A DNA stretch of 63,962 nucleotides, filler included, from Welwitschia mirabilis (taxonomy: Eukaryota), in assembly GCA_051453625.1 (NCBI GenBank). It is 5 parts of one record of this genome, joined end to end, with 100 filler letters (N's around TTAATTAATTAA, not from the genome) between each part and the next. Parts side by side here need not be neighbours in the genome. Positions count along the whole stretch, not along the records: positions 58,128 to 61,187 come from JBOZIK010000001.1; 4 more parts are not named here. One strand, given 5' to 3'. The position numbers and the translations under genes are program-made. Below the pieces are notes generated by a model, which saw only the letters and a list, made by a program, of their open reading frames with translations, was not told the origin of the DNA and did not search any database. This document shows positions 10,554-63,962 of the stretch, piece by piece. How positions within the stretch are numbered: position 1 is the stretch's first letter; each line of letters begins with the position of its first letter.

Positions 10554-13500
10554 ATGACCTCAAACAACTTCCTATCCTCACCTTGTCTATTTCATAGATA
10601 AAACTATGGTTCTTGGGCTATTAAGATGAAGGCCTATTTGCAGGCCTTTGACTTGTGGGAGGTGTTGGAAAATTACTTGGATCTAGGATCACTACCAAAC
10701 AACCCAACCTTAGCTCAAATCAAACTTCACGATGAGGAGAGGTCAAAAAAATTTAAAGCCAAAACCAGCATCTATTCTACACTCTTAGAGGATGTTTTCA
10801 CAAAGATAACGACTTGTGAAACTCCAAAGAAAGTTTGGAATTCACTCAAGGAGGAATACCAAAGTAATGATGGGACAAAGAGAATGCAAATATTGAATCT
10901 CAGAAGGGAACTTGAGATCCAAAGGATGAAGGAATTTGAGAGCATCAAGGACTATGCGAACAAACTCAAGGCCATAGTTAACAAGGTCTAATTGCTTGGG
11001 GAAGAGCTTACTGATAGAAGGATTGTAGAGAAAGTCCTTGTTAGCTTACCTGAAGGATTTAAGTCAAAAATATCTTCACTTGAGGATTCAAGAGATCTTT
11101 CACAGATTAGTTTTACAAAGCTGATCAATGCCTTGGAAGCACAAGAGCAAAGAAGGGCAATTAGACAAGAAGAAATAATTGAAGGTGCATTTCATGCTAA
11201 GACAAGAGAAAATGCACAATCAGGCAACATAGGCAAGAAACAAATTGGAGATTGGAGACATAAGAAAGGAACTTCAAGCAGTAAAGATGAAGAAATAAAG
11301 GGAAATTTCCTCCATGTTCACACTGCAAGAATACATCAAACTCTCAGAAGTATTGCTGGTTCAGACCTGACATTTAGTGCAGGTCATGTAAACAAATGGG
11401 GCATATGGAGAAGGTTTGCAAGAACAAGCAACGAGTTCATTAAGCACAAGCTGTAGAAAGCCAACAAGAGCAGGAGGAGCAGTTGTTTNNNNNNNNNNNN
11501 NNNNNNNNNNNNNNNNNNNNNNNNNNNNNNNNNNNNNNNNNNNNNNNNNNNNNNNNNNNNNNNNNNNNNNNNNNNNNNNNNNNNNNNNGAAAGCCAACAA
11601 GAGCAGGAGGAGCAGTTGTTTGTTGCAACTTGTTTTGCAACTAATAAAAGTAATGATGCATGGCTAATTGACAGTAAAGTATGTTCAGGAAGCTAGATAA
11701 GACATGCATCTCAAAGGTTAGAATTGGTCATGGAGATTATCTTGAAGTCAAAGGAAGAGGAGTGGTAGCAGTTGAACTCCAACAGGTATTAAACTTATTT
11801 CAGATGTGTTATATGTACCTGAAATTGATCAGAATCTCCTAAGTGTGGGCCAGCTATTAGAGAAGAATTATTTTGTATTTTTTAAAGATAACACATGCAT
11901 AACACATGACTCTGTTGCTTGTGAATTTTTTTCTATCAAGATGAAAGACAAGTTCTTCTCTTTGGATTGGAAATGTGTTGCTTGTGCATCTCCTTGTTTA
12001 GTTGATCAATCTGAACTTTGGCATAAAAGCTTGGGGCATTTTCATTATTCTGCATTGCATTTCTTTCAAAGGAGCGAACTTGTGTAGGATATGCCAATGA
12101 TTACAACAAAGTCTGAAGTATGTGAGATTTGTCAACTAGGAAAGCAATTTCGATTGTCATTTCTAGTTAACAAAGCTTGGAGAGCAACCGAAAAGCTACA
12201 GCTTGTCCATACTGATGTTTGTGGCCTAATGAAGACCCTATCTTTTAGTGGCAGTAGATATAATATTGCATGTATTGATGATTTTAGCAGAATGTGTTGG
12301 GTTTACTTTTTGAAATTAAAGTCTGAGGTTGCTGCTGTGTTTTGGAAATTTAAGAACTGGATTGAGAACCAACGTGGTTTGAAAACCAAGGTGATTAGGT
12401 CAGATAATGGGATTAAATACACTTCTGAGAAGTTTAATCAGTTTTGTGAAGATGCAGGCATTGAGCATTAATTTACAATAACTTATGCTCCTCAACAAAA
12501 TGGAGTTAAGTGAAAGGAAAAATAGGACAATTATGGAGATCTCAAGGTGTTTGCTTTTTGAAAAGAAAATGCCTAAGAAGTTTTGGGCTGAGGTTGTTAA
12601 CACTTTAGTCTATTTACTTAATAGACTCCCAACAAAAACACTAAAGGGGAAGACACCATTTGAAGCTTGACATGGTTACAAACCCTCTATGCAAAATTTG
12701 AAGGTGTTTGGCAATATATCCTACACACATATTTCAAATGTGAAGAGAGATAACCTAGATTACAAGTCAGAGGTTGGGATTTTTGTGGGCTACAATAGTA
12801 TCATCAAAGGTTATAGGGTTTATCAACCTTTAATAGGAAAGGTGATAGTTAGCTAAGACATCAAGTTCAATGAATTTGTAGCCTGGAATTGGGAAAAAAA
12901 AACAGAAGTGGAGCCTGACAAACTTATTCCAAGACCTGTATTGATCCATGAGGAGTAGGAGGATGACACTAGTGATGATGAAACATATGATCATCAACCT
13001 GTAAGTGGTACAAGATCACTTGCTAATATCTATGCAAGATGTAACTTAGCTGTTTTTGAGCTTGTAGGTTATGAAGAAGCTGCAATGGATCCAAAGTGCA
13101 TTGAAGCAATGGAGGAGGAGTTGAGAATGATAGAGAAAAATCAGACATGGATCTTAGTGGACAAACCTAGCCACAAGAAATTTATTGGTGTAAAGTGGGT
13201 ATACAAAACCAAACTCAACCCTGATGTATCTGTCAATAAACACAAGGCAATGCTAGTTGTCAAAGGTTATGCTTAGCATTTGCTGTGGACGTCTCAGAGA
13301 CATTTGCAACAATAGCATGACTTGACACTATCAAAATGCTATTGGCATTAGTAGCTCGAAAGGATTTGAGAGTTTACCAGCTTGATGTCAAGTCAGCCTT
13401 CCTAAATGGCTTGGAGGAGGAGATTTTTGTTGAGCAACCAAATGGTTTTGTTATAAAAGGAAATGAAGACAAGGTTTATTTACTTAAGAAGGCCTTGCAT

Positions 13501-15382
13501 GGTCTAAAGCAAGCTCCAAGAGCCTGGTACAACAAGATTGATGACCNNNNNNNNNNAATTGCTGTTTCTTTATATGTTGATGACCTACTTGTAACAATAA
13601 GCAATGTAGGAATGGTGCAACAATTTAGAGGTCAAAAGATGAATGTCTTTGAGATGACTGATCTAGGAGAGATGTCCTATTTCCTTGGTTTGGAAATTCA
13701 GCAGCTGTAGAAAGGAATCCTTATTAGGTAGTACAAATATGCAAAAGAAATGCTTAAGAAGTTCAGCATGGAAAACTGCAAGCCTGTAAGCACTCCCTTG
13801 ATGCAAAATGAGAAGCTTAGTAAAAACGATCAAGCACAAAAGGTGGATGAATATCTATATAGACATCTTATAGGTTGTCTAACGTATTTGACAATAACAA
13901 GGCTTGATATTATGTATTCTGTAAGTCTGTTGTCTAGATTCATGCATTGTGCAAGTGAATTACATTTTAAAGCTACTAAGAGAGTGCTTAGATATGTTAA
14001 AGGCACACTAGACCTTGGAGTTTGGTTTGAAAGATCAGACCAGCTAAATTTGCATGGTTTCTGTGATAGTGATTGGGCAGGTTCTAGTGATGATATGAGA
14101 AGCAGTTTTGGATATTTGTTTAGCCTTGGTTCAGGTCTTTTCTCTTGGAGTTCAAAGTAGTAGGATGTGGTAGCTCAGTNNNNNNNNNNNNNNNNNNNNN
14201 NNNNNNNNNNNNNNNNNNNNNNNNNNNNNNNNNNNNNNNNNNNNNNNNNNNNNNNNNNNNNNNNNNNNNNNNNNNNNNNGTATGGTCTAAAGCAAGCTCC
14301 AAGAGCCTGGTACAGCAGGATTGATGACCATCTACTCCAAATTGGTTTCAAAAAGAGTTTGAGTGAATCAATTCTTTATGTGAAAATTAGTAATGGTGAT
14401 CTAATTGTTGTTTCTTTGTATGTTGATGACCTATTTGTAACAGGAAGCAATGTAGGAATGGTGCAGCAATTTAAAGATCAAATGATGCATGTCTTTGAGA
14501 TGACTGGTCTAGGAGAGATGTCCTATTTTCTTGATATGGAAATTCAGCAGCTGCAAAAAGGAATCCTTATTGGGTAGTACAAATATGCAAAAGAAATGCT
14601 TAAGAAGTCCAGCAGGGAAAACTGCAAGCCTGTAAGCACTCCCTTGATGAAAAATGAGAAGCTGAGTAAAGATGATGAAGCAAAAAAAGGTGGATGAAGG
14701 TCTATATATCAGTCTTATAGGCTGTCTAATGTATTTGACAGCAACAAGGCCTGACATTATGTATTCTATAAGTCTGTTGTCCAGATTCATGCTTTGTGCA
14801 AGTGAATTACATTTTCAAGCTAGTAAGAGAGTGCTTAGATATGTTAAAGGCACAGTAGACCTTCGAGTTTGGTTTGAAAGATTAGACAAGCTAAATTTGC
14901 ATGGTTTCTGTGATAGTGATTGGGCAAGTTCTAAGGATGATATGAGAAGCACTTCTGGTTATTTGTTTAGCGTTGGTTTATGTCTTTTCTCTTGGAGTTC
15001 AAGGAAGCAAGATGTGGTAGCCCAGTCAACTGCTGAAGCAGACTACATTGTTGTTGTTGCTGCTATTGATCAAGCTTTGTGGCTAAGAAAGTTATTGTCA
15101 AACTTAAAACATGACCAGAAGGAACCCCCAAAAATTTTTGTTGATAATCAAGCTGCTATAGCTATCTCTAACAATCTAGTGTTTCATGGCAGAACAAAGT
15201 ATTTTAAGATTAAGTATTATTTTCTTAGAGAAGTCCATAAAAGCAAGGAGATTCTTCTGGTGCATTGCAAAAGTGAAGTTCATCTGGCTGAGCTTCTTAC
15301 AAAGGCTTTGTCTAAAGCCAAATTTGGAGAACTAACGAAGAGTCTGGGACTTTGCAGCAAAAGAAACAAAAACGAATGTTAA
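10554..15382 (+). pseudogene. Copia gag-pol polyprotein pseudogene
   Basis: MKAYLQAFDLWEV (gag), LWHKSLGH..CEICQLGKQ (integrase Zn finger), HTDVCG/RSDNG (rve), [16 protein letters not shown] (RT), CDSDWA...AQSTAEADY (RNase H). Contains stops and frameshifts. Confidence 0.95.
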
Positions 15383-20647: not shown

Positions 20648-20747
20648 NNNNNNNNNNNNNNNNNNNNNNNNNNNNNNNNNNNNNNNNNNNNTTAATTAAT
20701 TAANNNNNNNNNNNNNNNNNNNNNNNNNNNNNNNNNNNNNNNNNNNN
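20648..20747. other. Artificial scaffold linker N44-TTAATTAATTAA-N44
   Basis: Exactly 100 bp with a six-frame stop core, identical at four places in the window. Confidence 0.97.
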
Positions 20748-38429: not shown

Positions 38430-38529
38430 NNNNNNNNNNNNNNNNNNNNNNNNNNNNNNNNNNNNNNNNNNNNTTAATTAATTAANNNNNNNNNNNNNNN
38501 NNNNNNNNNNNNNNNNNNNNNNNNNNNNN
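38430..38529. other. Artificial scaffold linker N44-TTAATTAATTAA-N44
   Basis: Identical 100-bp linker. Confidence 0.97.
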
Positions 38530-48060: not shown

Positions 48061-51000
48061 GATTAGAGAACCGGATCAAGTCCAGGTCTATAAAAAACGT
48101 GGCAGCCCAAACCCTGCAAACAGAATTGCGCCCATTTGCAGGAAAATGCGTAGTGTCCGAACTGCACTAAAGTGGAGCGTCTGAACCGTGCCCGAGCACC
48201 CGTTATGATCTCAATGTGCCAGAAGACACGGGGAAAGCTCTGAGAACTAAACCTACCAAGCTCTGAGAGGCCTTTCAAGTAGCAAGATTTGATTCTTATG
48301 TCCTTAGCCTCAAAAGGCATGATCCTGATCTCTCCAAACAATTCTTCAGAAACTAGAATGGCAGATCTACTCAGATAGGTAACACTACCATCTTCATTGA
48401 TAGTCCTTCCATTAGTGATGCCACTCACGTAAGTCCTCAAGGTATAAACTAAAAAGGGGTGCCCCCAAGGCTTTCATAGTTCCTCATTTCGAACGATTGA
48501 TTGGGAAAACACCGCTAAAGAGAGGAGGAAGCTACAAAAGGAAGGATCTGCCACGGTCCTATGATTCTTAGGCTGCTTTGATCATGAAATATTTCACCTT
48601 GCCTGTAGCTTCTAGATCTTTACAGTCTCTTGATACTATCATTTCAAAATTGCTAGACGCAAATGAGACAAAAACTATAGAACCCTCTAGTAGAGCATCG
48701 AGTATTAGAAAGGGTTTCTCACACAAAAGAGAAGATGTTCATGGACATACTAAGAGCATAAGTAAATTTGCTGGCAGAAGCCAAGTCGTTTGCTGGTATT
48801 GTAAGAAGAAGGGTCATATAAACAAAGATTGTTATGCCTTAAAACATAAGAAGAAAGGCAAGCGACCTGAGAACAGCAAACAAAAACAAGTACAATTCGA
48901 TGGGGATGTTTCAATCATGCTAATTGCTAAAGATGGAGATGCTCATGTCTCCACGTACTCTACTCCTGATGTATGAATTCTATATTCAAGAGGTTCTTTC
49001 CATGTCTATCCACATAAAGAATATTTTTCTGACTACAGATCCATTTCTGGAAGAGAAGTCTTCTTGGGAGATGACAAATCATGCATTGTTAAAGTAATTG
49101 GTGTTGTCATTCTAAAACAGAGTAACGGCAGAATGTGACATTAAGGAGTGTTTACCATGTTCCTTGTATTACAAAGAATTTTATCCCTTTTAGATAGGTA
49201 GATGACTTGGGGTGTAGAATTACATGCTAATGAAAGCTGAAAAGTAAGCAAAAGGGCAATGACACTAATGCATAGAAAGAAAAAGGGACGCTGTATATAT
49301 CGAGAGCATGTGCAGTTGAAGGATATGCTGCTACTGCTGCAATTTCGAAGGACAATATTACTCTGTGGCACTACAAACTCAGACACCTCAACAAAATCGA
49401 AATGAAGGTACTTATTTCTAAGAATCTGCTGCCTGAGTTTTCTTCCTTTTCTCTAGATTGTTGTCATGATTGTGCTATCAATTAAAAAAAGGTGTGTTGC
49501 TTTTAAGAAATCTGTTTTGAATAAGGAGATAAGAAAGCTTGATATTGTGTATTCCGATGTTGTTGGTCCAATGGACGTCATGTCTTTAGGTGGTGCATCA
49601 TATTTTATTACATTCATTGATAGTTTTAGCAAAAAAACGTAGATTTATTTTATGCATCCCAAAAGTCAAGCCTAAGAAAAGTTTAAGGAGTTTAAGGCTA
49701 GAAGAGAAAATGACTCTAGCTATAAAATAAAATGTCTAATAACTGACAATGGGGATGAATACACCTCCCATGAGTTTTTTAAATTTTGTAAGTAGGTTGG
49801 AACTGGACATAACAAAACACCACTAGGAACACCAAAAAATAATGGTGTTGCAGAAAGATATAACCATATCAAATCCATGCTTGCTCGATCCAATGTGCTA
49901 AAGTCATTTTGGGCAGAAGCTACTAAAACAACGCTTAGTTGATCAATCATTCTCCTCATTCAGCCTTGGATGGTGGTATCCCATAATCTGTCTAAAGGGA
50001 GTGTTCTCTTTCTCTATCTCACCTACATGTTTTTGGATGTGAGGTGTATATCCATCTGCAAGGTACAGGAAAACTGGAAGAACATGGTAGGAAATATATT
50101 TGTCCTGGCTATGGGGGAGATGATTTTGCATATAGGCTTTGGGATCCTATGACACGGAGGATTGTTAGATCACGTGATATTGAACTCAAAGAAGATGTGA
50201 TGATTTATATGTCATAGGAGAGCATTCAAAAAGAGGGAAGTTCTAATTCTTGCACCTTGCACAAGCCTAAATAGGTTGATGATGATAAGAAGCATGATAC
50301 ACATATTGAAAATGTCCAACCTAAGCTAGGCTAGCCTAAAGAAGAAAGCTTAAGTTCTAAATCTGGGTCTAATGATGATCGTACTCAAGTTCTGGCATAT
50401 GGGGTTTAGAGATCCACCAGAGTTACTATCTCACCTCAAAGATATTCTCCATCTTTACATTATGTGTTGTTTACAAGTAAGGGAGAACCTAAATCCTTTG
50501 AAGAAGTTCTTTCTTCTTCTGAGTCTCATAAATGGAAAGCTACCATAGAAGAAGAAACAAAATCATACTTGGGATTTGGTCCCCTTACCTAAAGAGAAAA
50601 GGCCTTTAAAATCTAAGTGGGTGTATGTTACCAAACAAGAGATTGGTGGTGGACAGCATTGCAAAGCAAAACTGGTGGTGAAAGGGTACAGCCAAAAACG
50701 AAGTATTGATTTTACAGAAATTTTCTCAACTATTGTGAAGCACATATCTATTTGAATTTTCCTTGGCATGGTGACTTGTTTGGATTTGGAATTAGAGCAG
50801 TTAGACGTTAAAATAGCTTTTCCGCATGGTGATCTAGAAGAAGAAATTTATATGCATGTACCACACAACTTGGAAGTAGAAGATAAAAATATACTTTGTA
50901 GGTTGAGGAAGTCTTTTTATGGCTTGAAACAGGCACCTCGGCAATAGTACAAGAAGTTTGATGATTTTTTGCAGAAACAGGGATACTCCAATTGCGACTA

Positions 51001-52101
51001 CGATCATTGTGTGTACTATTACATGAGTGCTTCAAGGGTGATTGTCATTCTTATGTTGTATGTTGACCATATATGGGTTGTTCGAAATGACATTAAAGGA
51101 ATCAAAAGACGAAAGAAGGAAATATCCAAGAATTTTGCCGCTAAAGATCTTGGGCCAGCAAAACAAATCCCTAGAATGAGGATTATTATGAGGATTGTTA
51201 GAGATAGATCACATCATAGGTTATGATTGAGCCAATCTGAATATATTGCCAAAGTTTTGAAATGTTTTAACATGCTAGATTATAAACCTGTTTGTACTCC
51301 TCTAGCTACACATTTCCAATTAACTCATCAAGTTTGTCCCACTTCAAAGGAGAAGGCAAAATGACAAGTGTGCCTTATACATCAGTTATGGGAAGCCTAA
51401 TGTATGTCATGGTCTACACAAGACCAGATATTGCTCATGCAGTAGGAGCTATCTCTCGTTTTATGAGTAATCCTGGAAGAGCATTGAGAAGCAATAAAAT
51501 GGATACTTTGTAACTTGAAGGGAACCCAACATGTGAATCCGTGTTTTGGCAATACCATTTTGCATGTTATAGGGCTAGTTGGAAGGATGCTAGAAGACCT
51601 ACTAATAGGTACATCTTTTCTCTTGGTGGTGGAGCTATTAGCTGGATGTCCTATCTACAATCAAATGTTGCTCTTTCCACTATAGAAGTTGAGTATATTG
51701 CCTTAACAGAAGCTGCTAAGGAGATGCTATGGCTGCATGGTCTTGTTGGCTAATTTGACCTTAGGGCTTAGTCAAACCAAGTTTGTCATGCATTGTAATA
51801 GTCAGAGTGCCAAGGATCTAACAAAGAGTCCTATTTATCATGCCAGAACTAAGCACATTGATATTAAATATCTTTTCATTAGGCAGAAGTTTGAAAAATG
51901 CCTATTAGATGTTTGAAAGATTCACACACATGTGTGTCTTGCTAATTTTTTGACAAAAGTTGTTAATGGCACAAAGCAAAAGGCATCTCGTGATGGAGTA
52001 GGATTGCAGACGTGATCTAGAAGCACGGACATAAGCATCTATTGGAGCTATATAAGTACTTCTTCTTGAAGGCTCATCAAATTTGTCTTCAAGTACGAGA
52101 A

Positions 52102-52699: not shown

Positions 52700-55085
52700 G
52701 GGTCACATGAAAAAGGATTACCAGACATACAAAAAAGCAAAAAGAAAAGGAAGCAAATGGTAGAAAAACAGATGACCAAACAAAGAGACATGCACATCAA
52801 ACTAAAGTGATGGAGGGTAGCATTCATGTGCATGGGTTCACAAGTAATTTTTTCTCAAGATTTCATTGATGATGTCTGGTTATTGGATAGTGGTGCTTCT
52901 TTTTCACATTTGTCCAAACTGGCAGAGTTTAGTTTATATGTAGCTTAATGAAGTTAGAATAGTTGTTGCTGACAGTAGAAAGTGTAAGATACCTGGTATT
53001 GGTACTATTGTCTTACAACAGCAGAGTGGTTCGCATGTCACAATTAAAAAAGCAAGACATGTTACTGACATCAATAGAAATCTACTATCACTTGATCAAG
53101 TGGCAGTCTTCCTTGCAAGTTGCTTTTCTAAGAAAGAATGTGATAGATTAGCAAAGGTGCTATGACATTACTGAATGGTAATAAGGAAAGTTACTTATAT
53201 ATCCTTTGTGCCAGACCCACAAGTAGACAAGGTAAGGTAGTAGTTGTTGCAAAGGATGCAAATTTGTGGCATGGGCATCTTGGACATCTGGGCGTGTTTG
53301 CAATAAAGGTATTTCAATCTCAAAATCCAACCACTGTATCTACTTTTGTTTCATTAAATTTCTGTAGAGAATGTAAAGGAGGAAAGTGTAGTAGAGTCAA
53401 CTTTAAAAGCAATGCACAGTTTAGAAGCAAAACAAAATGAGAATTAATTTATTTTGATGTTGTCAATCCTCCAAATCCAACGTCTCTCGGTGGTCCCCGT
53501 TTCTTTGTTACTTTTATTAATGACTTTACTTGCAAAAGTTGGGTATGTCTATTCAGACAAAGGACATGGTTCTCAATTTTCCTAAGGAGTTTCTAGCAAA
53601 GGGGGAAACACAGATAGGTTTGAAGGTTAAGAGACTTCTCACAAATTATGGAGGTGAACAGACCTTAAATTCTGTACTTAGAAGGGCATAATCCACTTCC
53701 ATATGACACCTGAAGCTTCACAGCAAAATGGAGTCATGGAAAGATGTGATAGGGTCTTGTTGGTATGTGAAAGAAGCATGGTGGTTGATGCAAATCTTCC
53801 CAAACGTTTTTGGGTGAAGTAGTTAGTACATCAGCATATCTTATTGAGAGGTCACCCCATTAGATGGAAACTTCCGAAAATCTTACTGAAGGGAAAAGCC
53901 ATATCATATCAGCACTTGAGGTCTTTAGTTGTGAAGACTATGTTGATGTGCAAGAGTCCCATAGATCCAAGCTAGATGACAAAGCACACATGTATGTCTC
54001 TGTAGGCTATAATGGAGATGACATAGGTTTTAGACTCTGGGAACCTGCCAGCCAACAGATCATCAGATTAGAGATGTAATAGAGAAGATACTCCTTTCTA
54101 TCCACAGTAGAAGCAGAGTCATAATGTGGGAATTTCTGAGCTCATACTCAGTAGAAGGAATCTGTTGTTTTTCCCCTCAAGTCTATGATGAAGAAGAACA
54201 AGAAGAAACTGATGTGCATGAAATTAATGACACAAATCAGCAGCTTGAGGAAAGTGATTAACTAGAAAAGAAGAGGGTTTAAATGAATAGGTCAAAGGGC
54301 AGGCAGAACGAGATGTGCCTTCTCATGAGGCTCCTTCCCACTGGATAAGGAGATTAACTAGAGTTATAAAACAATCAGATAGATACTCTCCTTCCTTGTA
54401 CTATGTTTACTTAACAGATATGTGTGAACCAAAAACTGTTGCAGAAACTAAATCTTGCAGTGAATTAAAGCAGCGCAAGAAAGCAATGAAAAAGGAATGG
54501 AAGTCCACCCTTACAGGTAACCATACATGTGACTTGAAGCCACTGCCAAAGAGGAAGAAAACCCTCCATCGCACATAGCTTTTCACAAGAAAGACAGATT
54601 TGAATGAACTTATGGGGTACAAAGCAAGATTAGTACTGAAGAGTTATGCTCAGAAACCAAGTATAGATCTTACAAAGACCGTCTCTCTTGTTGTTAAACA
54701 TTCTTCCAATAGAATCGTGGTGTCCCCAGTTGTTTGTCCAGATTTGGAGTTGAAGCAGTTAGATGTCAAAACTGCACTTACTAAGCATGTATCAGTCCGA
54801 AGGTTTTGTTGATCCTGAGCATCCAGACTTAGTATGCAGATTGAACAAGATCTTGTATGATCTCAAATAGGCAACTAGACAGTGGTACAAGAAATTCAAT
54901 TCCGTCATGGAAGAACAGCAATACTGCAACTGCAATATAGATCATTTGGTGTACCTTTAAGGGCAAGTATGAGGTAAATTTTGTGTTATGTTGTTAAATG
55001 CAGGTCATATGCTTATAGCTAGAAATGACAGCAATGAAATAAGCACTTGAAATAGGAAATAAGTCAGCATGTTGATATGAAAGCA
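52700..55085 (+). mobile_element. Second decayed Copia internal region (protease, integrase, partial RT)
   Basis: WLLDSGASF, LWHGHLGH..CRECKGGK, QQNGV.ER, RSKLDDKA, RYSPSLYY..EPKT, YKARLV.K.YAQK and QLDVKTA. Truncated after the RT core. Confidence 0.85.
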
Positions 55086-55329: not shown

Positions 55330-57140
55330 TAAAGGTTTGGGAGCAAAGACTGATAAGGCTCAAAGAGTAACTCTTTCAGCAGTATTCAAATGGTAACTCT
55401 TTAAAAGTCACTCAAGTTCTAATCTTGCTAATTTAACTTATTCAATATGTGGATGATTCTTCTATATTTTGTGGAGTATTCGAGATATCTTGTAAACTCT
55501 TTGCTCCCTAAAAATCCAGGATTACATATTAACCTTCAAAAAAGTATGGCTCACACTTTTAACATGCATTAGAGGCAGATTCATGAAATGTAAAGAATTC
55601 TGAATCTGGCAATTAAGAGCTTATTTGAAAAATATAAAGGTGTTCCTTTTACTATAGGGAGAGTGAAGAAAAAATAAAGAAAGAATTATGGGGCCATATT
55701 CTCAATAAAATGGCAAAAGTGTTAGCAAGATAAGAAAGTAAATTTCTTTTTTAGCAAACAGAGCTCAGCTTATTCAAAGTTGTCTTCAATCCTTACCAAT
55801 TTTCTTGATGTCCTTTCTTTTTGTCAACTACATGGAAAAGTATGAAAGGAATTTTTTATGGAAAAGCACTAATGTTGAAAGAGCATCCATTTCAAAAATT
55901 GGATTCCTTGTGAAGGGCTGAAGGTGGTTTTGATCTATAAAAGATTTCATGAGTTAAATCTTTCTATCTTGGCTAAGATAGTCTAGCATTTACATTCAAA
56001 AAAGGGAAAATGGTTTCAAGTATTAAACGCCAAATATCTAAATCAGTATCCATTTCTTTGAAGGTCCACGTATTACTGCAAGCTATGCAATCTGTTATGG
56101 TTTGTAGAAATTTAGGAGATTGGTTGAATAATTATCTATTACAAATCTAACAACAAGAAAGTACTAAAATAAAATAGAAAAGCCGGCAAACAAAAGGAAC
56201 AACATAGAATTTACGTGGTTCGGGCTCTTTTTACCCTACCTCCACGAAAAGCAATGCAAAGCTTTATTGATTGATTAGGAGCAAAATGTGTCCAGATACA
56301 ACAGACAACCCTCTATCAAGTTTATATCGCCTTAGGGTTAGGGTTACAAGTCAATCCCCTTTTACAACTTTAAATAGGGTCAATGTTAAAACATTTCAAT
56401 ATAAATAATAATTTGGCTTCACATATCGACATTATCATACTCTAGGAAGTTATCCACTAGACCAAGAAGCGAGTAGATATAAAAAATGTGAATTAGCCCA
56501 AGGCTGCAATTCTTTTTCTCTCTAGCAAGATCAAATGAGTTGCCTTTTCTAGAGGGCCTTTAAAAACATGGTTGGGCGATTAGAAATTGATGTCACAGTT
56601 GCAAAAATGACAAATAATCCTTAGGACATTGCCTCTTCATTGACCATGGGCAAGGAAAGTTTGCAATTTTATTTTTTCAATGACAAAGTCGCAAATAATT
56701 CTTCCAAATAATGTTAAAAATCTAGTTAAACAATGGGATTGGTCTAATGGCAAACAAGAGATGAAAAGTACATTTTATCATTTGCTTCCACGTGTTTGAT
56801 TGCAACTTTGAAAAGAAAGCAAGTTCAAATCCTCTAGATGAAGCCTGAAAATTTAAAAAGAAATTATGTTATGAAAAGTTGTCATATTCCAATTTAATTG
56901 CTCGAGGGAAGGAAAGCCTAAAAATTTAAAAAGGAATGATGTAATAAAATATGAGATTATTGTCTTCATATTCCAATTTTCTTGTCTCTTCATCCTTGGC
57001 TTGACCCTTGTGATGGAGAAGTTAGGCAATCAAACCTTTATCACGCGAAGATTAGTTCACATTCCTTTTTCCTCTAGCTTTAGAGCCAAGGGAAGAAGCT
57101 AGATGCAGAATTGTTTCCTATCCAACATAGCCCCCTATCT
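55330..57140 (+). mobile_element. L1-type LINE remnant of the same family as LINE-A/B
   Basis: QYVDD near 55442 and colinear similarity to 26700-28200. Interrupted by a solo LTR. Confidence 0.72.
56137..56431. mobile_element. Solo LTR (295 bp) with TSD TTATC, inserted in the LINE
   Basis: TTATC at 56132-56136 and 56432-56436. Ends are TA(decayed TG)...CA. The motif ATTTACGTGGTTCGG...CCTACCTCCAC is typical of reverse-oriented Copia LTRs. Confidence 0.75.
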
Positions 57141-57228
57141 TAGGAAGGCAACACGGCTATTGTTAGTGTGGTGTACCAACCTACCATAAAAACAAATTTT
57201 AAGTTCTTCGGAAAAAAAGGAGAGTAAT

Positions 57229-58027
57229 CTTTTTTTTTTGAGAAACGGTAAATGTCTATTATATTATAACTTAAGACAAGAGGAGAAACACAATAGCTTA
57301 AAAGCTATTTTTCCAAGTGTGATAGAAATCCCGTCAATAATCAAAGCCCCAAATATCAGCATCTAATTTAGTCAACACACGTCCCAATTCCAATCAAAAA
57401 GAGGCTATTGACTAGCATACCTCAATGGGTTTACAATAAAACAAAATTTAGAAGACTCCAAAGGTGGGAAATTTTCTTGCCAATCCCAAGGCCTCTACAA
57501 TTCCAAAAAATTCATTGGAAGGAGAGTCGAAATTGCTTACCATCTCGGATGTCTTCCTTCGTCTCCTTTTCAATTTTACTTTTTCTGATATTCATCCTGA
57601 TTTTTTTGTTCGTCTGTCCAATTTTTCAAGTTCTGCTAGCTATTCACATGTATAAAGAATGCTACTCTACGTTGTTACCATTATCTCTTTGCTCCTGTCC
57701 TATTCCATTTCAAAAGGTTGTTGTAATTCAAAAGAGCAAATTGGCGCATTGTAGACACACTCTGTGTGCTACTTTTCATGTACCACTGTTTCCCGTTCAT
57801 TTCTTATTTCATTTTCCTGCATCTATTCTGGTTCTTCCTCTAATAGAATATCATATTTATTTGCATGAGTAGTTGGATCATTGTTTGGGACTAAAGCTAG
57901 TTTCTTTTTGCGATTTTTTTCTTGAATAGTTGCAAGCCATTTTTTTCCACTTTCTCATTTTTCTTACATTTTTCCATCGTATGTCCATTTTCACCACACT
58001 TCGAACATTGCAATGGAATATTTCTGA
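57229..58027 (-). mobile_element. Internally deleted L1-type LINE (ORF1 tail, ORF2 start, 3' end with poly-A)
   Basis: Minus strand has IFWNCRGLG (about 57486-57512) only about 250 bp upstream of the ...TTTACCGTTTCTC-poly(A) end at 57229-57239. Confidence 0.65.
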
Positions 58028-58127
58028 NNNNNNNNNNNNNNNNNNNNNNNNNNNNNNNNNNNNNNNNNNNNTTAATTAATTAANNNNNNNNNNNNNNNNN
58101 NNNNNNNNNNNNNNNNNNNNNNNNNNN
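58028..58127. other. Artificial scaffold linker N44-TTAATTAATTAA-N44
   Basis: Identical 100-bp linker. Confidence 0.97.
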
Positions 58128-58930
58128 AATCGTCCATCTTTCAATTTTTACTATTAAAATTCTTTCTTCTTTGGGTTGATCAAACCATATGTTTGAGTCG
58201 ACCAGATTCATCTCAGTTTCCTATTAAATCTTCCATGCAATGGGTCAACTACCAGTTATTTTAAGGTCAATCTCATTTAGAACTTTTCGTAGTCATATCA
58301 GGTCAATCACTACTTTTGTTTAGGTTGACCGACTTTATCTTAGTTTTTCCTGTAAAATCTTTATCTCTCAGAGTCGACTGCTCATTTTTTTCTAAGATCG
58401 ACCACCTCCTTGTAGTTCTAGTTTTAAAAATTTTACATAGGTCGACTGATCTTGCTAATCGGTCACCTGCGTTTAAGGCGGTGCACCATGGATTTTTAAA
58501 ATTTGCCCACCCCTCTTAAATCCCTCATTTATCTTATTCTTCTCTTGTCGTTTCTCAACTCTTGTGGCCCACTCTTCATCTTTCCCACATTTTTTATTTA
58601 GAGCTGGTCTTCAAATGGCTTCTCAACAATCAAGAGAGGGTTCTAGGAAGAGGAGAAAGGAGTCTACTATAAAATCCCCTAGTTATATTTTTTCAAGAAT
58701 AAGTACTAAGCAAGTAGAATATGTTGAGAAGCATTTTGAGTCTAGCCCCATTGCTTTGGAAAGGACCTATGAACGTGTTCAATTTCTCAGTCTGAGGGAG
58801 GTTTAGATTCTTCTTGAGGAAGTAAATAGGAGCTACTTCCTCCATGTTTCATGAACGTGTTATCCATTAGTCACTAGGTTATTTTATTCAAATGCTAGAT
58901 TTGATGCTGCCCATTCCACTTTTATTACTT
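58128..58930 (+). mobile_element. LTR-retrotransposon 3' region with an env-like ORF fragment (SIRE- or Athila-like)
   Basis: Dispersed GTCGAC-like palindromes (58197-58450) followed by MASQQSREGSRKRRK...YPLVTRLFYSN, which resembles plant env-like ORFs. Confidence 0.45.
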
Positions 58931-60082
58931 TTATTTTTTGCCATGAGATGTGTTACGACAACTTTTGGCAACGTCAAATTTTTGTGATATGGTATCTTAA
59001 AAATATTTAAGTTGAATAAAGGCTCATGGCTAATTGATGTTATGGTTTGGGCATATGATGTTATAGGTTTCATAAAATCTATAATTAAAGATTAAATTAT
59101 GGATGAAACCTAGAAGGAATAATTTAAGAAGTAAAATTTGGAAGTATAATTTAAAATGATTAAAAAAAAGTTTTTTTCCCTTATTTTTGAAGCATTATCA
59201 CGCTATTATAATTGGAAATTTGTGGCTTTACTATTTTTGAGACACTATGCAAACAAAAATAGTAATGGAAAAATTTCAATAAAAAGAAAACACATTTCAT
59301 TCCCTTTTTTTAAGATAATAATTCCAAAATTTAAAAAAAGAAATTACAGTCTATTAAAAACTATGGAAGGAATAAAATTAAAAAATAAAAATAATTGAAA
59401 AAAAGAAAAATAAACTTCTTATTATTTCCCTGTTATCTTCAAGATGATATTTCGAATGCAAGAATCCCAAATATTTCATAAAAATCATTCGAAGGCAAAA
59501 TATTTGATAAAAGAAAAAATCGCTCAAGCAGATATTTTAAAAGGAAACTTGTGATAGAAATTCAAATTATACATAATTTATTCAAATCATTGACTAAATA
59601 GAATTATGAAACCTAGGTAGCGTCTTCTCTAAAAAATGACTCTAGCTGTTATCGATGAATGATATTTTGGGTCGACGTTTGAGTTTGTTTTCTACTGTCT
59701 AATGCACGTCTTTAGCTTCTGCTTCTCGTTGTTTCAGCTCATTGCTTTGTTTCACTGCAATACTTTCTTCTTATGATTCTTCTGTGATCGTTGCCCGTCA
59801 TGTTGCATTTACCATCTTTTTGTCTGCGATGTCTATCCTCCCTTTCACGCTGCTTCTGATGTGTTCTGATGCATTTCTGATAATGTGTTTTCATTCTTTG
59901 ATATTTCACCCACCCTTCTGACATTTCCCCTTTCTCTGCTATCTTCTCTTCTGGTCCCTCTGATGTGCGTCCTCGATGCTGTCTGCCTTCGTTCTAGCAT
60001 TCCTTTTTTTTATGCCGTCATTTTTCCTCCTTTTTTTTTGGTATGCGTATCTAGTGTAAGTTTTTTTTACTGCCTTTCCCTT

Positions 60083-60463
60083 AACTAACAGCTAGGATGG
60101 GAGGACTATTTTCTGATTATAGCAATTCTGTTACTGAAGCCAAAGGTCTTTGACCTTGTTATGCAGCTGATCCAAAAAGCTTGGCATCCAGTTGCGTGGA
60201 TTGTAAATGCTCCTAATGACGTGGAGTGGATGCAACTGATGATAGCATTTGCTTCACTCAAAATGATATGATTTTTTTAGCAACTTGTGTGATCTCTATT
60301 GCTCTATGCATTTTGGCATCTTTTCTCCTCTCTGCATTTGGAAATGAAATCACCTTTCCTCATCAGTCGTTTGTGGAGCCTCTTGATCTCGCCTCTTTAC
60401 CTTGCAGAGTTACCTTCTTGTTTCCTGCAACGTCTGATGGATTAGAGTTTGTTCGGTCACCAT
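60083..60463 (-). pseudogene. Unidentified decayed coding fragment (protein C-terminus), third part of the chimera
   Basis: One frame reads HGDRTNSNPSDVAGNKK...ERRKDAKMHRAIEITQVAKKIISF...SENSPPILAVS*. Its internal stops could be C>T changes of CGA/CAG/CAA. No family was recognised. Confidence 0.3.
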
Positions 60464-60816
60464 GAAAGTAAAGTAATCACGGTCAAGCTGATTTTTATTA
60501 TTGGAAACATTAGCAATGGCAACTAGACGAAGTTTCTTATTGGAGGTGTCATTATGCTGTCAAAAGGTAGCACTGGCGAAGACAGAAATGACATCGCCTT
60601 GCTGGACATGTTTGATCTTCTGACAGGTGTTCGACGACCCTTGAGCAACTCCTCTTTCACTTCTACTATGTTGCTGCTCCTGCAGAGAGGAGAATGGCTC
60701 GTGGAAGTTCAACGGATAGCTGGGGATAACAATTTTGAAGAGACCATAGCCGTGGGTGACATAGGCAAGATGCAAAGTATTGGTGTAGCGTGGAAGCAGA
60801 GTGTATTGGGTTCAAG
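60456..60816 (-). pseudogene. 11S legumin-like (cupin) storage globulin fragment
   Basis: LEPNTL/LPRYTNTLHLAYVTHGYGLFKIVIPSYPLNFHEPF...TCQKIKHVQQGDVISVFASATF*QHNDTSNKKLRLVAIANVSNNKNQLDRDYFTF, the N-terminal cupin domain of 11S globulins. One frameshift and one stop. Confidence 0.85.
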
Positions 60817-61187
60817 GTGTTTGAAATGGTCCAACAATTTAACCACACATTTTCTTGTATTCCACATCACCCCTTGCTATTTGATTAAAAATTGTAATCT
60901 CATCCATGACTGTTTCTACATAATGCTAGATACTTTTCTATACCTTTAAAGTGACGATTCTATTTTCTTGTGTGTCTCAGGTGAGCCAAACGATGGAGAA
61001 ATGGTCCCAGCCGAGCTTAGAATGAATAACATACCTCCCATTCCTGGAAAAAAATCACTTATGTGCACAACATGGTATCCTCCATGCCTATATTCGTCCT
61101 TTCCTTCATCCTCCGACCAGCTATCATTCTCGTTCTGGTTGCTCTTGCTTTATTCCTCATCCTTACGCTTTTCCTCTTTCTATGAAT
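60817..61187 (-). pseudogene. SRPK: SRPK (SR-protein kinase) N-terminal fragment
   Basis: SEDEGKDEYRHGGYHVVHISDF/RNGRYVIHSKLGWDHFSIVWLT*DTQENRIVTLKV*KSI*HYVETVMDEITIFNQIARGD...CVVKLLDHFKH, matching plant SRPK subdomains I-IV with stops and frameshifts. Confidence 0.92.
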
Positions 61188-61287
61188 NNNNNNNNNNNNN
61201 NNNNNNNNNNNNNNNNNNNNNNNNNNNNNNNTTAATTAATTAANNNNNNNNNNNNNNNNNNNNNNNNNNNNNNNNNNNNNNNNNNNN
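61188..61287. other. Artificial scaffold linker N44-TTAATTAATTAA-N44
   Basis: Identical 100-bp linker. Confidence 0.97.
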
Positions 61288-62979
61288 GGGACCTCTTAAC
61301 ATACTTAGCTTTTATGTGTCTAATAGATATTGTGGCCTAGTGACCAAGGGATTCACTATGATTCTAGTTTCCCATGTTGTATTTCATTTTATTATTGATT
61401 AAATGCATTTTATATCATATTTGCATTAGAGTCTTATTAGGGTAAAAGAGTTTGACCCTCAAGAGTTTATTTAGGCTAGGCGCTCCTTCTCAGAAAATCC
61501 TAAGGATCATGGTATTAAAGAATTATTTATTATAAGTTTATAGTACTTTTAATTATTTTTATTTATTTNNNNNNNNNNNNNNNNNNNNNNNNNNNNNNNN
61601 NNNNNNNNNNNNNNNNNNNNNNNNNNNNNNNNNNNNNNNNNNNNNNNNNNNNNNNNNNNNNNNNNNNNAAGAATTATTTATTATAAGTTTATAGTACTTT
61701 TAATTATTTTTATTTATTTATAATAAAAATTCATAGTCAATTTAATTGATTTGATGTCTATAAATTAGTATGATTTCTCTTATTCTCAGTTTAGACAAAG
61801 TTTATCGTTTGTTCTTTTAAGTCAAGCAAATTAATAAAGTTATAAATCATTTAATACTAAGTAAAATTTTATAAATTTTTTTTATAGGTCTATAATTATG
61901 TTAGAAAGTTAAAGTTTTAAAAAAGTAATTTTTTAGGATTAAAATAATTTTTAAAATTTATTTTATAAAACTATCTTAGAATTTATAAGCAAAAAACAGT
62001 AAGTAAAAAGTTTCAGTTTTTAGAATTTACAAAGACTTTGGGTAAAAATGGAATAGTCCAAGTTGTAGAGAGTTGAATAAGCATTCCAAAAAGTATTTAC
62101 TTATTGAAAAAATCAAGTATATTAAAAGGTATAACCATTTTAGTGAAGGGTATTCATTTAGTAATTCAATAACTTAGGCAATTTTTTTGGTTTAATGTTT
62201 GACCATATAAAATATATATAGGCTATTTTAAACTTATTAAAATTAGTTTTAGGAATAGTGTAATGAGTCTAGGTTAAGAAAGTCAAGTCTATTTTATCTT
62301 TACAGTTTTAAATAATTAATTGTAAATTTTTAGTTCTAATGTCTTCTAAAACGTAAGAAAATTTGTAATTAATTTTAATAATTATAGAAATTATCTAATG
62401 CAAGTACCAAATTGTTTTAAATATTAGTTTTGATTTATAATTAAGTTATGTTTATTTTTCTATCCTTTTTATATACTTTTAATTGAAATTTAGGCTCTTA
62501 TTCTTTCCTTTCATGCATAAACATTATGAATGTCTACTTAATAATTCTAGAGATGTATTGCCTAATTAATTAAATTCATTAATATTTTTTTAATAAGATA
62601 TCCATATATTTTACCTATCTCTATTTTTATGTAGACACTTATCAATGATAAAGGGGATTTTCAAGCTGACTTAGTTTCTTAAATGGAGCATGTCTTTTTT
62701 ACGATAGAACTTGGATGTGTTAATGTGTCTTATTTGAAAGAATTACTATAATGTAGAAAAATAAAGAGATGTTTTATTTCATTTATTTTCATTACTAAAA
62801 TTTAAAAAATGTATTATTTTATTTTATGAAAAACCAAAAAGATGATCGTACATTATATTTTTCTTCTGTATGATTATCTACTTAAAACAAATCCAATGAT
62901 GATTAGATTTATTTTTAATAGGTAAACAATTCATTAAATATCCATATTTGTATGTTTGCATTTGTATGGTGTATTCATT

Positions 62980-63500
62980 CAAGTAAACCAAGATAATCTT
63001 AATAATTATTCATCCCCATACTTGGATTTCATCACCAATGTGGATTGCATTATACTTTTATTTCCAAACCCTTCTGGAACTGGATTTGATTACCACTATT
63101 CTACCCTCCCCATGCATGGAGTTACTCCGACTTAATATCTCAAGCCCTTGGTATCAAAGGATCATGTTGTACCATCTTGTAATGCTTCAAGAAATTGGGG
63201 GTCACTTGTAAGCATGCATCCACCTGACATACTGCCTGTCACCTATATTGGGAGTATTTCGAGGTGAAGTTTAAGCCTATGGAGTTGAGACCAGTCATCT
63301 TTCTATAGTTTAGAACCTGAAGTAAAACCAAATCATGTTTGGAGGGTGGCCAAATATCGAGTTGGAATGCTATTAATAGGAGATGCAACCTCTTATTATA
63401 TTAGTTAGGCACTATCCTAAAACTTATCCATTGTATGTGATAGAACAAGTTAACATCCCATCAAATTTATACAAGATATTTTATGTGGCAAAAAAAAAGT
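62980..63500 (+). mobile_element. L1-type LINE RT-thumb fragment
   Basis: LPVTYIG (cf. LPxxYLG), then IILVRHYPKTYPLYVIEQVNIP. Confidence 0.5.
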
Positions 63501-63708
63501 TAGAAATAAATATAAGACACAATTTTGACATCATTATTGCATTCAAACCAAAAGGGTCTATAGTTAAGTAATAATTATGTTATCTAATTATTTAATATGT
63601 TAATAGAGTCTAAATAGGATTTAATCCTAGGCTCCGTTGTGCATGTTAGTTAATAATGCTTTAAAAGGGGAAAAAAATAGTAGTTAATTAGGGTAATTAA
63701 AGTTAGAA

Positions 63709-63730
63709 TGTTACATAATGGTATTAGAGC
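63709..63730 (+). promoter_or_regulatory. LTR end (TGTTACA) with a tRNA-iMet PBS, suggesting a chromovirus-like LTR upstream
   Basis: TGTTACA-TAA-TGGTATTAGAGC. The upstream AT-rich sequence may be the decayed LTR. Confidence 0.5.
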
Positions 63731-63962
63731 TTAGGTAACTTAAATCGTATCTATGTTAATTACTTGAAAATAAATTTGCTTACGTCCAATTTAAAGCTAA
63801 CTGCTAATTAACTAAAAATTAATTATATTCATGATAATCCTTATTCCTAAAGTAATTATAGAATTAATTATCTCATAAGCATTCCAAGTCATAAATAATT
63901 ATGGAATTAATTATATTTATAGTTACCTTAATTAACTAATAATAATGAAGTAAATTATACCT

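What the first reader, a model, noticed from the sequence alone, without database searches (positions are those of the whole stretch)
60456..61187. SRPK::11S-legumin chimeric pseudogene fused at a Pro-Asn microhomology
Seen: on the minus strand the SRPK N-lobe (...CVVKLLDHFKH) runs directly into LEPNTL-LPRYTN...GDVISVFA...NQLDRDY of an 11S globulin with no spacer. Established: SRPK normally continues FKH-SGPN and 11S globulins read xEPN at this point. Inference: the 60805-60816 junction (CTT GAA CCC AAT) is compatible with both parents, suggesting microhomology-mediated template switching between two mRNAs or gene-fragment capture by a transposon. No introns are visible in either part.
Basis: partly seen in the sequence, partly recalled or inferred. 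Interest (0 to 1): 0.75.

Follow-up and report, generated by a model that had tools for sequence, protein, structure and literature searches.

The report
Decayed SRPK–legumin chimeric pseudogene fragment
A dead, mutation-riddled piece of DNA in a gymnosperm (Welwitschia-like) genome joins the front of a splicing-kinase gene to the middle of a seed-storage-protein gene; it is a real but ordinary kind of genomic debris, most likely made when a reverse transcriptase hopped between two messenger RNAs.

Summary
On the minus strand of a 3,060-bp contig (58128-61187), the N-terminal lobe of an SRPK kinase (PDB phmmer E 1.3e-14) runs without spacer into codons 91-219 of an 11S legumin. tblastn gives 87 of 122 residues identical to Welwitschia mirabilis legumin, E 1e-52.

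Both parts are colinear with coding sequence and have no intron-sized gaps. Both are dead: 3 small indels and at least 4 in-frame stops.

Almost all inferable changes are G>A or C>T, as expected for methyl-cytosine decay in a GC-poor gnetophyte genome.

At the junction the kinase ends at F-K-H and the legumin version L-E-P-N follows. P-N sits exactly where the kinase's own S-G-P-N would place it (chance about 0.015).

Best reading (about 0.5): a chimeric retrocopy made by microsimilarity-guided reverse-transcriptase template switching, a known kind. DNA-level transposon capture is not excluded.

Not obtained: parental DNA, genome copy number, read support and RNA coverage. The one read-laying run was lost. 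The find is ordinary.

The parts
60817..61187 (-). SRPK-derived part. It holds the acidic N-terminal tail and N-lobe up to ...CVVKLLDHFKH (about residues 24-130 of Capsicum SRPK P0005). It is read in three frame segments: 61137 to about 61060, 61045-60851 and 60849-60817. It is cut at 61187 by the contig end.
   Evidence: PDB phmmer gives SRPK1 at E 1.3e-14. HMMER against 1.84e9 representatives gives a best E of 2.9e-16. tblastn gives 39/63 identical to P0005 and 39/65 to Ginkgo P0003, plus a second HSP that includes CVVKLLDHFKH.
60805..60819 (-). The junction: CAC (His, last SRPK codon) | CTT GAA CCC AAT (L-E-P-N, legumin version of I-E-P-N). There is no spacer, it is in frame, and P-N is in register with SRPK's S-G-P-N.
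   Evidence: Sequence and codon comparison. Parental protein motifs. Chance of such register 0.015-0.016.
60431..60816 (-). 11S legumin-derived part: codons 91-219 of Welwitschia legumin Q41714 (N-terminal cupin, from I/L-E-P-N to ...I-R/H-Q-T). It is colinear and has no intron-sized gap.
   Evidence: Pfam Cupin_1 E 4e-6. PDB 11S globulins, best 5.4e-12. Q41714 at E 4e-43. tblastn 87/122 identical, E 1e-52.
61044..61054 (-). Frameshift 1: about +2 nt in or next to a T7 run inside the SRPK part.
   Evidence: Change of frame between the two tblastn segments. Sequence.
60850..60850 (-). Frameshift 2: one extra A in the run AAGAAAA, between ...EYKK and CVVKLL.
   Evidence: The tblastn segments end at 60851 and start at 60849.
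60797..60798 (-). Frameshift 3: only two bases (TG) are left of the legumin Ser97 codon, a 1-nt deletion.
   Evidence: LEPNTL ends at 60799 and LPRYTN starts at 60796.
60977..60979 (-). In-frame TGA where SRPKs have Trp (WLAWD). Further stops TAG at 60940-60938 and 60928-60926, where SRPKs have Gln.
   Evidence: alignments show * opposite W, Q, Q.
60560..60562 (-). In-frame TGA where the legumin has Trp175.
   Evidence: tblastn alignment. ORF list.
59600..60430 (-). Unassigned tail downstream of the legumin part. It is purine-rich on the sense strand (0.58-0.72). It has GT-type motifs (AAG|GTAACT, AAG|GTAAAG) at about 60416-60396 and A-runs at about 60041-60003. It could be the parent's hypervariable region or intron, a third captured RNA, or host-element sequence.
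   Evidence: Composition. No Pfam or Rfam match. Only non-significant low-complexity tblastn matches to the legumin (E>=1.3).

Best explanation
This is a non-functional, old chimeric retro-pseudogene in the transposon-rich DNA of a gnetophyte (Welwitschia or a close relative).

Inferred origin. Inside a retroelement particle, most likely of an LTR retrotransposon, reverse transcriptase was copying a legumin mRNA from 3' to 5'. At codon 91 the nascent cDNA end paired with a similar short stretch of an SRPK mRNA (x-G/E-P-N after F-K-H). Synthesis then continued on the SRPK mRNA towards its 5' end. The cDNA keeps the first template's letters in the similar stretch. This is why the chimera reads legumin-type L-E-P-N immediately after SRPK F-K-H, in frame and in register.

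After integration. The copy was never under selection. It was methylated and decayed mainly by cytosine deamination, giving G>A and C>T changes, Trp and Gln codons turned into stops, and three small indels. It does nothing today, except possibly feed small-RNA silencing.

Shown: the two identities, the colinearity without introns, the spacer-less in-frame joint, the decay spectrum and the TE-rich setting.
Inferred: the RNA origin, the template switch and its direction, and the type of retroelement.
For: - Identities: SRPK E 1.3e-14 and 2.9e-16. Legumin E 4e-43 and 1e-52.
- Colinearity: no gap larger than 2 nt over about 107 SRPK codons and 129 legumin codons.
- Introns: 11S genes have four exons and three introns (passages in PMC9561314, and PMC11187137). 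By my recall of exon sizes (exon 2 about 250 nt), a 386-nt piece covering codons 91-219 must cross at least one intron site.
- Joint: same strand, in frame, no spacer. The P-N register has a chance of 0.015-0.016. L-E is legumin-like, as expected if legumin was the first template.
- The 5' partner reaches the N-terminal tail of its coding sequence, as expected when the enzyme runs to the 5' end of the second template.
- Decay: in the legumin part, 29 of 133 non-synonymous G/C transition targets are hit against 3 of 111 A/T targets (p 5e-6). In the SRPK part the figures are 16/60 against 2/68 (p 2e-4). Similar decay in both parts fits a shared history.
- Long-term deamination and 29% GC are reported for Welwitschia (passages of PMC8275611).
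- Setting: 9 of 18 tested window ORFs carry copia-type gag, integrase or RT domains.
Against: - No LTR, primer-binding site, polypurine tract, target-site duplication or clear poly(A) was found.
- The 2.3 kb on the legumin side has no transposon protein domain (0 families in 6 read-through frames; 0 significant in 10 ORFs). The SRPK side is cut by the contig end.
- The legumin piece is internal (codons 91-219) and lacks the mRNA 3' end. At least one more junction, or a later truncation, must be assumed.
- Splice-donor-like motifs (AAG|GTAACT, AAG|GTAAAG) lie within about 35 nt downstream of the last aligned legumin codon. If they mark the parent's intron, the legumin piece is genomic DNA, not cDNA.
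- The intron positions of the parents rest on recall. The classic papers were not held. I have no information on SRPK intron positions.
- Nucleotide microhomology is untested because no parental DNA was available.
- Read support for the junction was not obtained.
Confidence: 0.5

Rival explanations
1. DNA-level capture of two genomic gene fragments by a DNA transposon (Pack-MULE, CACTA or Helitron type), or by transposon-associated repair synthesis, followed by decay.
For: - Gymnosperm genomes are reported to hold about 400,000 TE-captured coding fragments each. All major TE superfamilies take part, and on average 13.68% of host TEs carry two or more fragments (passages of PMC13477047).
- GT-type donor-like motifs sit just after the end of the legumin similarity, as if the copy ran into an intron.
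- By recall, some legumin genes (the B type of Vicia and pea) lack intron 1.
- Short GTCGAC/GTTGACC-like motifs recur at 58150-58500 and might be subterminal repeats.
Against: - No terminal inverted repeats were found. The longest inverted pair in the contig is 33 nt, 79% complementary and AT-rich.
- There are no introns in 129 + about 107 colinear codons.
- A spacer-less, in-frame and in-register joint is not expected from independent captures.
- No transposase domain was found.
Confidence: 0.2
2. Two separately inserted pseudogene fragments, or a fragment and a nearby gene, were joined later by a chromosomal deletion or end-joining event (NHEJ or MMEJ). The P-N register would then be chance, or a short repair microhomology.
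For: - Both parts are old and equally decayed, so the order of events is not recoverable.
- End joining with 1-3 nt of microhomology at CAC|CTT cannot be excluded without the parents.
Against: - It needs two independent intronless copies side by side in the same orientation.
- It also needs a deletion that leaves the frame and the P-N register intact (1.5% by chance).
Confidence: 0.12
3. A chimeric transcript (read-through or trans-splicing between an SRPK exon and a legumin exon) was retroposed as one RNA. The joint would then be an exon-exon boundary rather than a template switch.
For: - ORF fragments of SRPKs that look like reads from an exon into an intron leave the family sequence within a few codons after the same motif. 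Examples are P0012, P0032, P0050, P0054 and P0021, which deviate at or after G-P-N/H-G. Their organisms were not looked up. An intron may therefore lie near this site in some eukaryotes.
Against: - Those breaks are 2-6 codons downstream of F-K-H, not at it.
- No evidence exists for a legumin exon starting at I-E-P-N. By recall, intron 1 lies about 20 codons further on.
- SRPK and a seed-specific legumin would have to be adjacent or co-spliced.
Confidence: 0.06
4. Assembly artefact: two unrelated sequences were misjoined inside the contig.
For: - The window is a chain of short contigs with many gaps and linkers.
- The junction lies 370-380 bp from a contig end.
- Read support could not be examined.
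Against: - A misjoin would not be expected to be spacer-less, sense-to-sense, in frame and in register.
- Both halves show the same decay.
- Contigs of 9 runs from 3 studies hold part of 60300-61187. Four runs hold 0.71-0.75 of its sampled words, more than either half plus the tail could give (about 0.57-0.58). These runs may include the source sample, and the shares do not locate the junction.
Confidence: 0.05

Closest known systems
LTR-retrotransposon-mediated chimeric retrocopies (maize Bs1; rice retrocopies inside LTR elements; Drosophila polymorphic retrocopies)
   Same: Partial, intronless copies of cellular mRNAs. Two or more parental genes fused sense-to-sense. Short similarity at the fusion point. 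Often in frame (passages of PMC5131818).
   Different: No flanking LTR-retrotransposon sequence could be shown here, because the contig is 3 kb and cut at one side. This copy is far more decayed than the young cases described. Its copy number is unknown.
LINE-mediated bipartite or tripartite chimeric retrogenes (template jumps during target-primed reverse transcription)
   Same: A 5' partner that reaches its RNA 5' region is fused directly to a 3' partner. Double jumps give three-part chimeras (title and abstract of PMC2104539 in the listing). The unassigned tail with A-runs (60430 to about 60000) could be a third, 3'-terminal part.
   Different: No clear poly(A) tail or target-site duplication was seen. 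The legumin part is internal, not the mRNA 3' end. The A-runs are unremarkable in a window of 33% GC.
TE-captured gene fragments in gymnosperm giga-genomes (Pack-TE type capture)
   Same: Exonic fragments of host genes sit in TE-rich, methylated DNA. A minority of host elements hold two or more fragments (passages of PMC13477047).
   Different: That survey defines capture by the fragment lying inside an annotated TE. No host TE could be recognised around this chimera.
Welwitschia mirabilis legumin Q41714 and seed-plant SRPKs (the parental families)
   Same: 71-73% amino-acid identity over legumin codons 98-219. About 60% identity over the SRPK N-lobe core.
   Different: Only fragments are present. 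There is no signal peptide, no C-terminal cupin, no kinase catalytic or activation segments, and there are stops and frameshifts.

Membership tests
Retrocopy / processed pseudogene (RNA-derived copy) | Colinear with the parental coding sequence, with the parental introns missing | tested here: inconclusive
   Colinearity without intron-sized gaps is shown for both parts. It could not be checked that the parents have introns there. 11S genes have 4 exons and 3 introns, but the positions are recalled only (papers not held). SRPK gene structure is unknown to me.
Retrocopy / processed pseudogene (RNA-derived copy) | Poly(A) tail and target-site duplications (LINE type) | tested here: not met
   There is no poly(A) directly after the legumin part. 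Only A8-A9 runs occur about 390-430 nt downstream. The 5' end lies outside the contig, so duplications cannot be sought.
LTR-mediated chimeric retrocopy (Bs1-like) | Retrocopy flanked by LTR-retrotransposon sequence | tested here: inconclusive
   No retroelement domain is found in 58128-60430 (0 families in six frames). The other flank is missing. Copia elements are present elsewhere in the window, but across scaffold gaps.
LTR-mediated chimeric retrocopy (Bs1-like) | Microsimilarity between the templates at the switch point | not testable with these tools
   Only protein-level similarity was seen: x-G/E-P-N in register, with a chance of 0.015-0.016. No parental nucleotide sequence was reachable.
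Pack-MULE / CACTA / Helitron gene-fragment capture | Terminal inverted repeats (or Helitron ends) bracketing the fragments, with genomic structure (introns) retained | tested here: not met
   No convincing inverted repeats are found in the contig (best 33 nt, 79%, AT-rich). No introns lie inside the fragments. The contig is cut, so one end could not be examined.
Functional 11S globulin (legumin) gene | Open reading frame with signal peptide, two cupin domains and the Asn-Gly processing region | tested here: not met
   Only codons 91-219 are present, with one TGA and one frameshift. No C-terminal cupin lies anywhere in the contig.
Functional SRPK kinase gene | Complete kinase domain (N-lobe, spacer, C-lobe with catalytic loop) in an open frame | tested here: not met
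   Only about residues 24-130 are present, with three stops and two frameshifts. No match to the residues after F-K-H lies anywhere in the contig. Pfam Pkinase was not detected.

The most novel reading that the evidence does not exclude
The joint is a readable fossil of a microsimilarity-guided reverse-transcriptase jump between two cellular mRNAs in a gymnosperm. It preserves the direction of the jump: legumin first, then SRPK. If so, a seed-specific storage-protein mRNA and a housekeeping kinase mRNA were co-packaged in a retroelement particle in cells that reached the germ line, such as the developing embryo or megagametophyte. Mining gnetophyte genomes for such joints could then date and locate past retroelement activity. 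A bolder add-on is that the sense-strand excess of G>A over C>T in the legumin part (21/67 against 8/66, p 0.011) reflects editing or damage of the first-strand cDNA rather than later methyl-cytosine decay.
Probability: 0.3. Interest if true: 0.35.

Novelty: new member of a known kind. Interest (0 to 1): 0.2.

Why it matters
The find matters little by itself. Chimeric, decayed gene fragments are reported in very large numbers in gymnosperm genomes, and this one cannot encode a protein.

Its small value is as a clean worked example:
- The joint is spacer-less and in register, so its two parents can be named.
- The legumin partner is a tissue-specific transcript.
- The decay spectrum illustrates the deamination-driven GC loss described for Welwitschia.

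For annotation, it warns that Cupin_1 or SRPK-like hits here are pseudogene debris and should not be called as genes.

Tried and rejected
- Own-genome search: no genome is held for this window. Copy number and parental loci could not be sought.
- Within the window the contig matches only itself.
There is therefore no read-level test of the junction and no RNA or small-RNA coverage.
- The look-up of sequencing runs: no RNA holder is listed. This is not evidence on expression.
- Word-indexed protein searches: the SRPK piece found no candidate. The legumin piece against near-length proteins scored none of 4 candidates. No ORF fragments of parental exons or of sister copies were found.
- Earlier scan findings: none by place, sequence or words.
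- Rfam on 57000-63962: one sub-threshold snoRNA-like match outside the contig (23.5 bits against a gathering score of 60). There is no small-RNA partner such as U6.
- Pfam on ORFs and on six read-through frames of the rest of the contig: nothing significant.
- tblastn of the remaining parts of the legumin and of two SRPKs against the contig: only low-complexity matches with E>=0.14, apart from the known pieces.
- Literature on intron positions: searches, and passages read, gave no positions. Nielsen 1989, Baumlein 1986 and Gatehouse 1988 are not held.
- Rejected: a functional chimeric gene (stops and frameshifts), and a crossover inside the Pro-Asn codons (the L-E codons are legumin-like).
- Organism: I did not try to decide between Welwitschia and another gnetophyte. 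Window GC is 33% against 29% reported for the Welwitschia genome as a whole.

Full report
WHAT IS THERE

The window is plant DNA with 33.3% GC and is broken by 19 runs of N. Four of these have the form N44-TTAATTAATTAA-N44, which looks like a contig-joining linker. The finding lies on one gap-free contig, 58128-61187 (3,060 bp). No whole genome is held for the window.

IDENTITIES

The legumin part:
- It matches Pfam Cupin_1 at E 4e-6, 26.9 bits against a cut-off of 22.
- It matches 22 distinct PDB sequences at E<=0.01. Twenty are 11S-type seed storage globulins and 2 are vicilins. The best is 5.4e-12.
- In the 5.8-billion-protein collection, the only hit of 68 candidates is Welwitschia mirabilis legumin Q41714 (519 aa, E 4e-43, 73% identity).
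- tblastn of that protein against the whole window gives a single alignment. Residues 98-219 correspond to 60796-60431, with 87 of 122 identical, E 1e-52 and one TGA opposite Trp175.
- Six further codons (L-E-P-N-T-L, 60816-60799) match I-E-P-N-A-L of residues 91-96.

The SRPK part:
- An 80-residue read-through with X at stops gives SRPK1, SRPK2 and yeast Sky1 as the 13 best distinct PDB sequences, E 1.3e-14 to 5.7e-9.
- It gives 1,047 proteins at E<=1e-3 in the 1.84-billion representative library, best 2.9e-16.
- The named top hits are SRSF protein kinases of Capsicum, a Ginkgo model, a partial Taxus model and a Diphasiastrum protein.
- Pfam did not detect a kinase domain in the SRPK pieces. 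The word-indexed search found nothing for them.
- tblastn with these SRPKs shows about residues 24-130 (Capsicum numbering) colinear in three frame segments.

The host is therefore a gnetophyte, Welwitschia or a relative. I did not resolve which.

STATE OF THE COPY

Neither part has an intron-sized interruption. Both are dead.
- Indels: +2 at a T-run (61054-61044), +1 at an A-run (60850) and -1 in the legumin Ser97 codon (60798-60797).
- Stops: TGA at 60979-60977 (Trp), TAG at 60940-60938 and 60928-60926 (Gln), TGA at 60562-60560 (Trp), and two more in the acidic N-terminal tail.

I inferred the minimal codon change for each replaced residue.
- Legumin part: 27 unambiguous single changes, of which 17 are G>A, 3 are C>T and 7 are other.
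- Legumin part, per non-synonymous transition target: G>A 21/67, C>T 8/66, A>G 1/63, T>C 2/48. G/C against A/T targets gives p 5e-6.
- SRPK part against Capsicum: G>A 9/38, C>T 7/22, A>G 2/41, T>C 0/27 (p 2e-4).

Caveats:
- Parental codons are guessed as the closest synonymous codon.
- Q41714 may not be the true parent paralogue.
- The SRPK references are other species.

[quoted passage not shown] CpG observed/expected is 0.58 in the chimera and 0.29 in the window.

THE JUNCTION

The DNA reads ...TTC AAA CAC | CTT GAA CCC AAT ACA CTC... (60819-60799).
- SRPKs read F-K-H-S-G-P-N (Capsicum), F-R-H-N-G-P-N (Ginkgo) and F-R-H-S-G-P-N (Taxus).
- The legumin reads T-I-E-P-N-A-L.
- L-E needs at most one change from I-E. 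It needs at least three from any Ser-Gly codon pair.
- P-N still sits at exactly the distance from F-K-H that it has in SRPK. Among all breakpoint pairs of an SRPK and the legumin, two or more consecutive identities within the next six residues occur in 1.5-1.6%.

A reverse transcriptase that copies legumin RNA and then jumps, by pairing of its nascent cDNA end, onto a similar short stretch of SRPK RNA would leave this picture. The similar stretch carries the first template's version, and the second template begins at its 5' edge. Whether the nucleotides really match could not be tested.

SURROUNDINGS

- The remaining 2.3 kb of the contig has no detectable protein or RNA family. It has no further legumin or SRPK similarity and no convincing terminal repeats.
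- Downstream of the legumin part, the sense strand stays purine-rich for about 800 nt. Donor-like GT motifs lie at about 60416-60396, and A-runs at about 60041-60003. This tail is unexplained.
- Other contigs of the window hold decayed copia-type elements: 9 of 18 ORFs tested have gag, integrase, RT or SH3 domains. They are separated from this contig by scaffold gaps.
- Contigs of 9 public runs from 3 studies and two organism labels hold part of 60300-61187. Four runs hold 0.71-0.75 of its sampled words. The shares do not locate the junction, and some runs may be the source.

MECHANISM AND COMPARISON

[quoted passage not shown] Plant cases are maize Bs1 and rice retrocopies (same passages). 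The chimera fits these features. I could not show the defining flank of LTR-retrotransposon sequence, and the intronless argument rests partly on recalled intron positions. 11S genes have four exons and three introns. That exon 2 is about 250 nt is my recall.

A recent survey reports about 400,000 TE-captured coding fragments per gymnosperm genome, with 13.68% of host TEs holding two or more (passages of PMC13477047). A two-gene fragment chimera is therefore common there, and DNA-level capture remains a live rival.

My weights are:
- 0.5 template-switch retrocopy
- 0.2 DNA-transposon capture
- 0.12 later end-joining of two fragments
- 0.06 retroposed chimeric transcript
- 0.05 assembly artefact
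- the rest unknown

VERDICT

This is a new member of a known kind with no present function. Interest is low (0.2).

Noticed in passing
window 20648-20747, 38430-38529, 58028-58127, 61188-61287: Four gaps have the form N44 + TTAATTAATTAA + N44 (100 bp in all). This is a six-frame stop linker, presumably put in when contigs were chained. Neighbouring contigs are therefore joined by scaffolding only, and adjacency across these points should not be trusted.
   Followed up: partly
window 61519-61568 and 61669-61718: The same run of about 35 bases (…aaaagtactataaacttataataaataattctt) stands on both sides of the 100-N gap at 61569-61668, as seen on the minus strand. The gap probably hides an overlap of the two contig ends rather than missing sequence.
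   Followed up: no
window 10602-15379 (+), 49996-51750 (+), 52944-54809 (+): There are three decayed Ty1/copia-type retrotransposon bodies. Domains found are Retrotran_gag_2, DUF4219, rve, RVT_2, SH3_retrovirus and gag_pre-integrs, with E from 1.8e-36 to 1.4e-6. All are broken into short ORFs.
   Followed up: partly
window 60431-60796 (-): The decay of the legumin part is strand-asymmetric. Sense-strand G>A hits 21 of 67 targets against C>T at 8 of 66 (Fisher p 0.011). The SRPK part shows no such asymmetry (9/38 against 7/22, p 0.55). Combined, p is 0.063. This could be chance, a codon-guessing bias, or a trace of first-strand cDNA damage.
   Followed up: partly
window 58150-58500 (-): Short motifs of the type GGTCGAC, GGTCAAC or GTTGACC recur about nine times in both orientations within about 350 bp at the end of the contig. 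They resemble the subterminal repeats of some DNA transposons. No family could be assigned.
   Followed up: no
window 59600-60430 (-): There is an unassigned purine-rich tract (purines 0.58-0.72 on the sense strand) after the legumin part. Only non-significant low-complexity matches to the Glu/Arg/Gln-rich variable region of the legumin were found (E>=1.3). It may be a diverged variable region, an intron, or a third captured sequence.
   Followed up: partly
protein P0004 (JGI/IMG metagenome contig, 211 aa): One of the best SRPK hits is itself a fusion. It has an SRPK N-lobe up to ...LGDNLLTLIK followed by a ribosomal protein L27e-like sequence, and it clusters with L27e proteins. It is another SRPK-N-lobe chimera, or a chimeric assembly, in an unrelated data set.
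   Followed up: no
window 62977-63039 (-): There is a weak C/D-box snoRNA-like match (Rfam sn1185, 23.5 bits against a gathering score of 60, E 0.29). It is probably chance.
   Followed up: no
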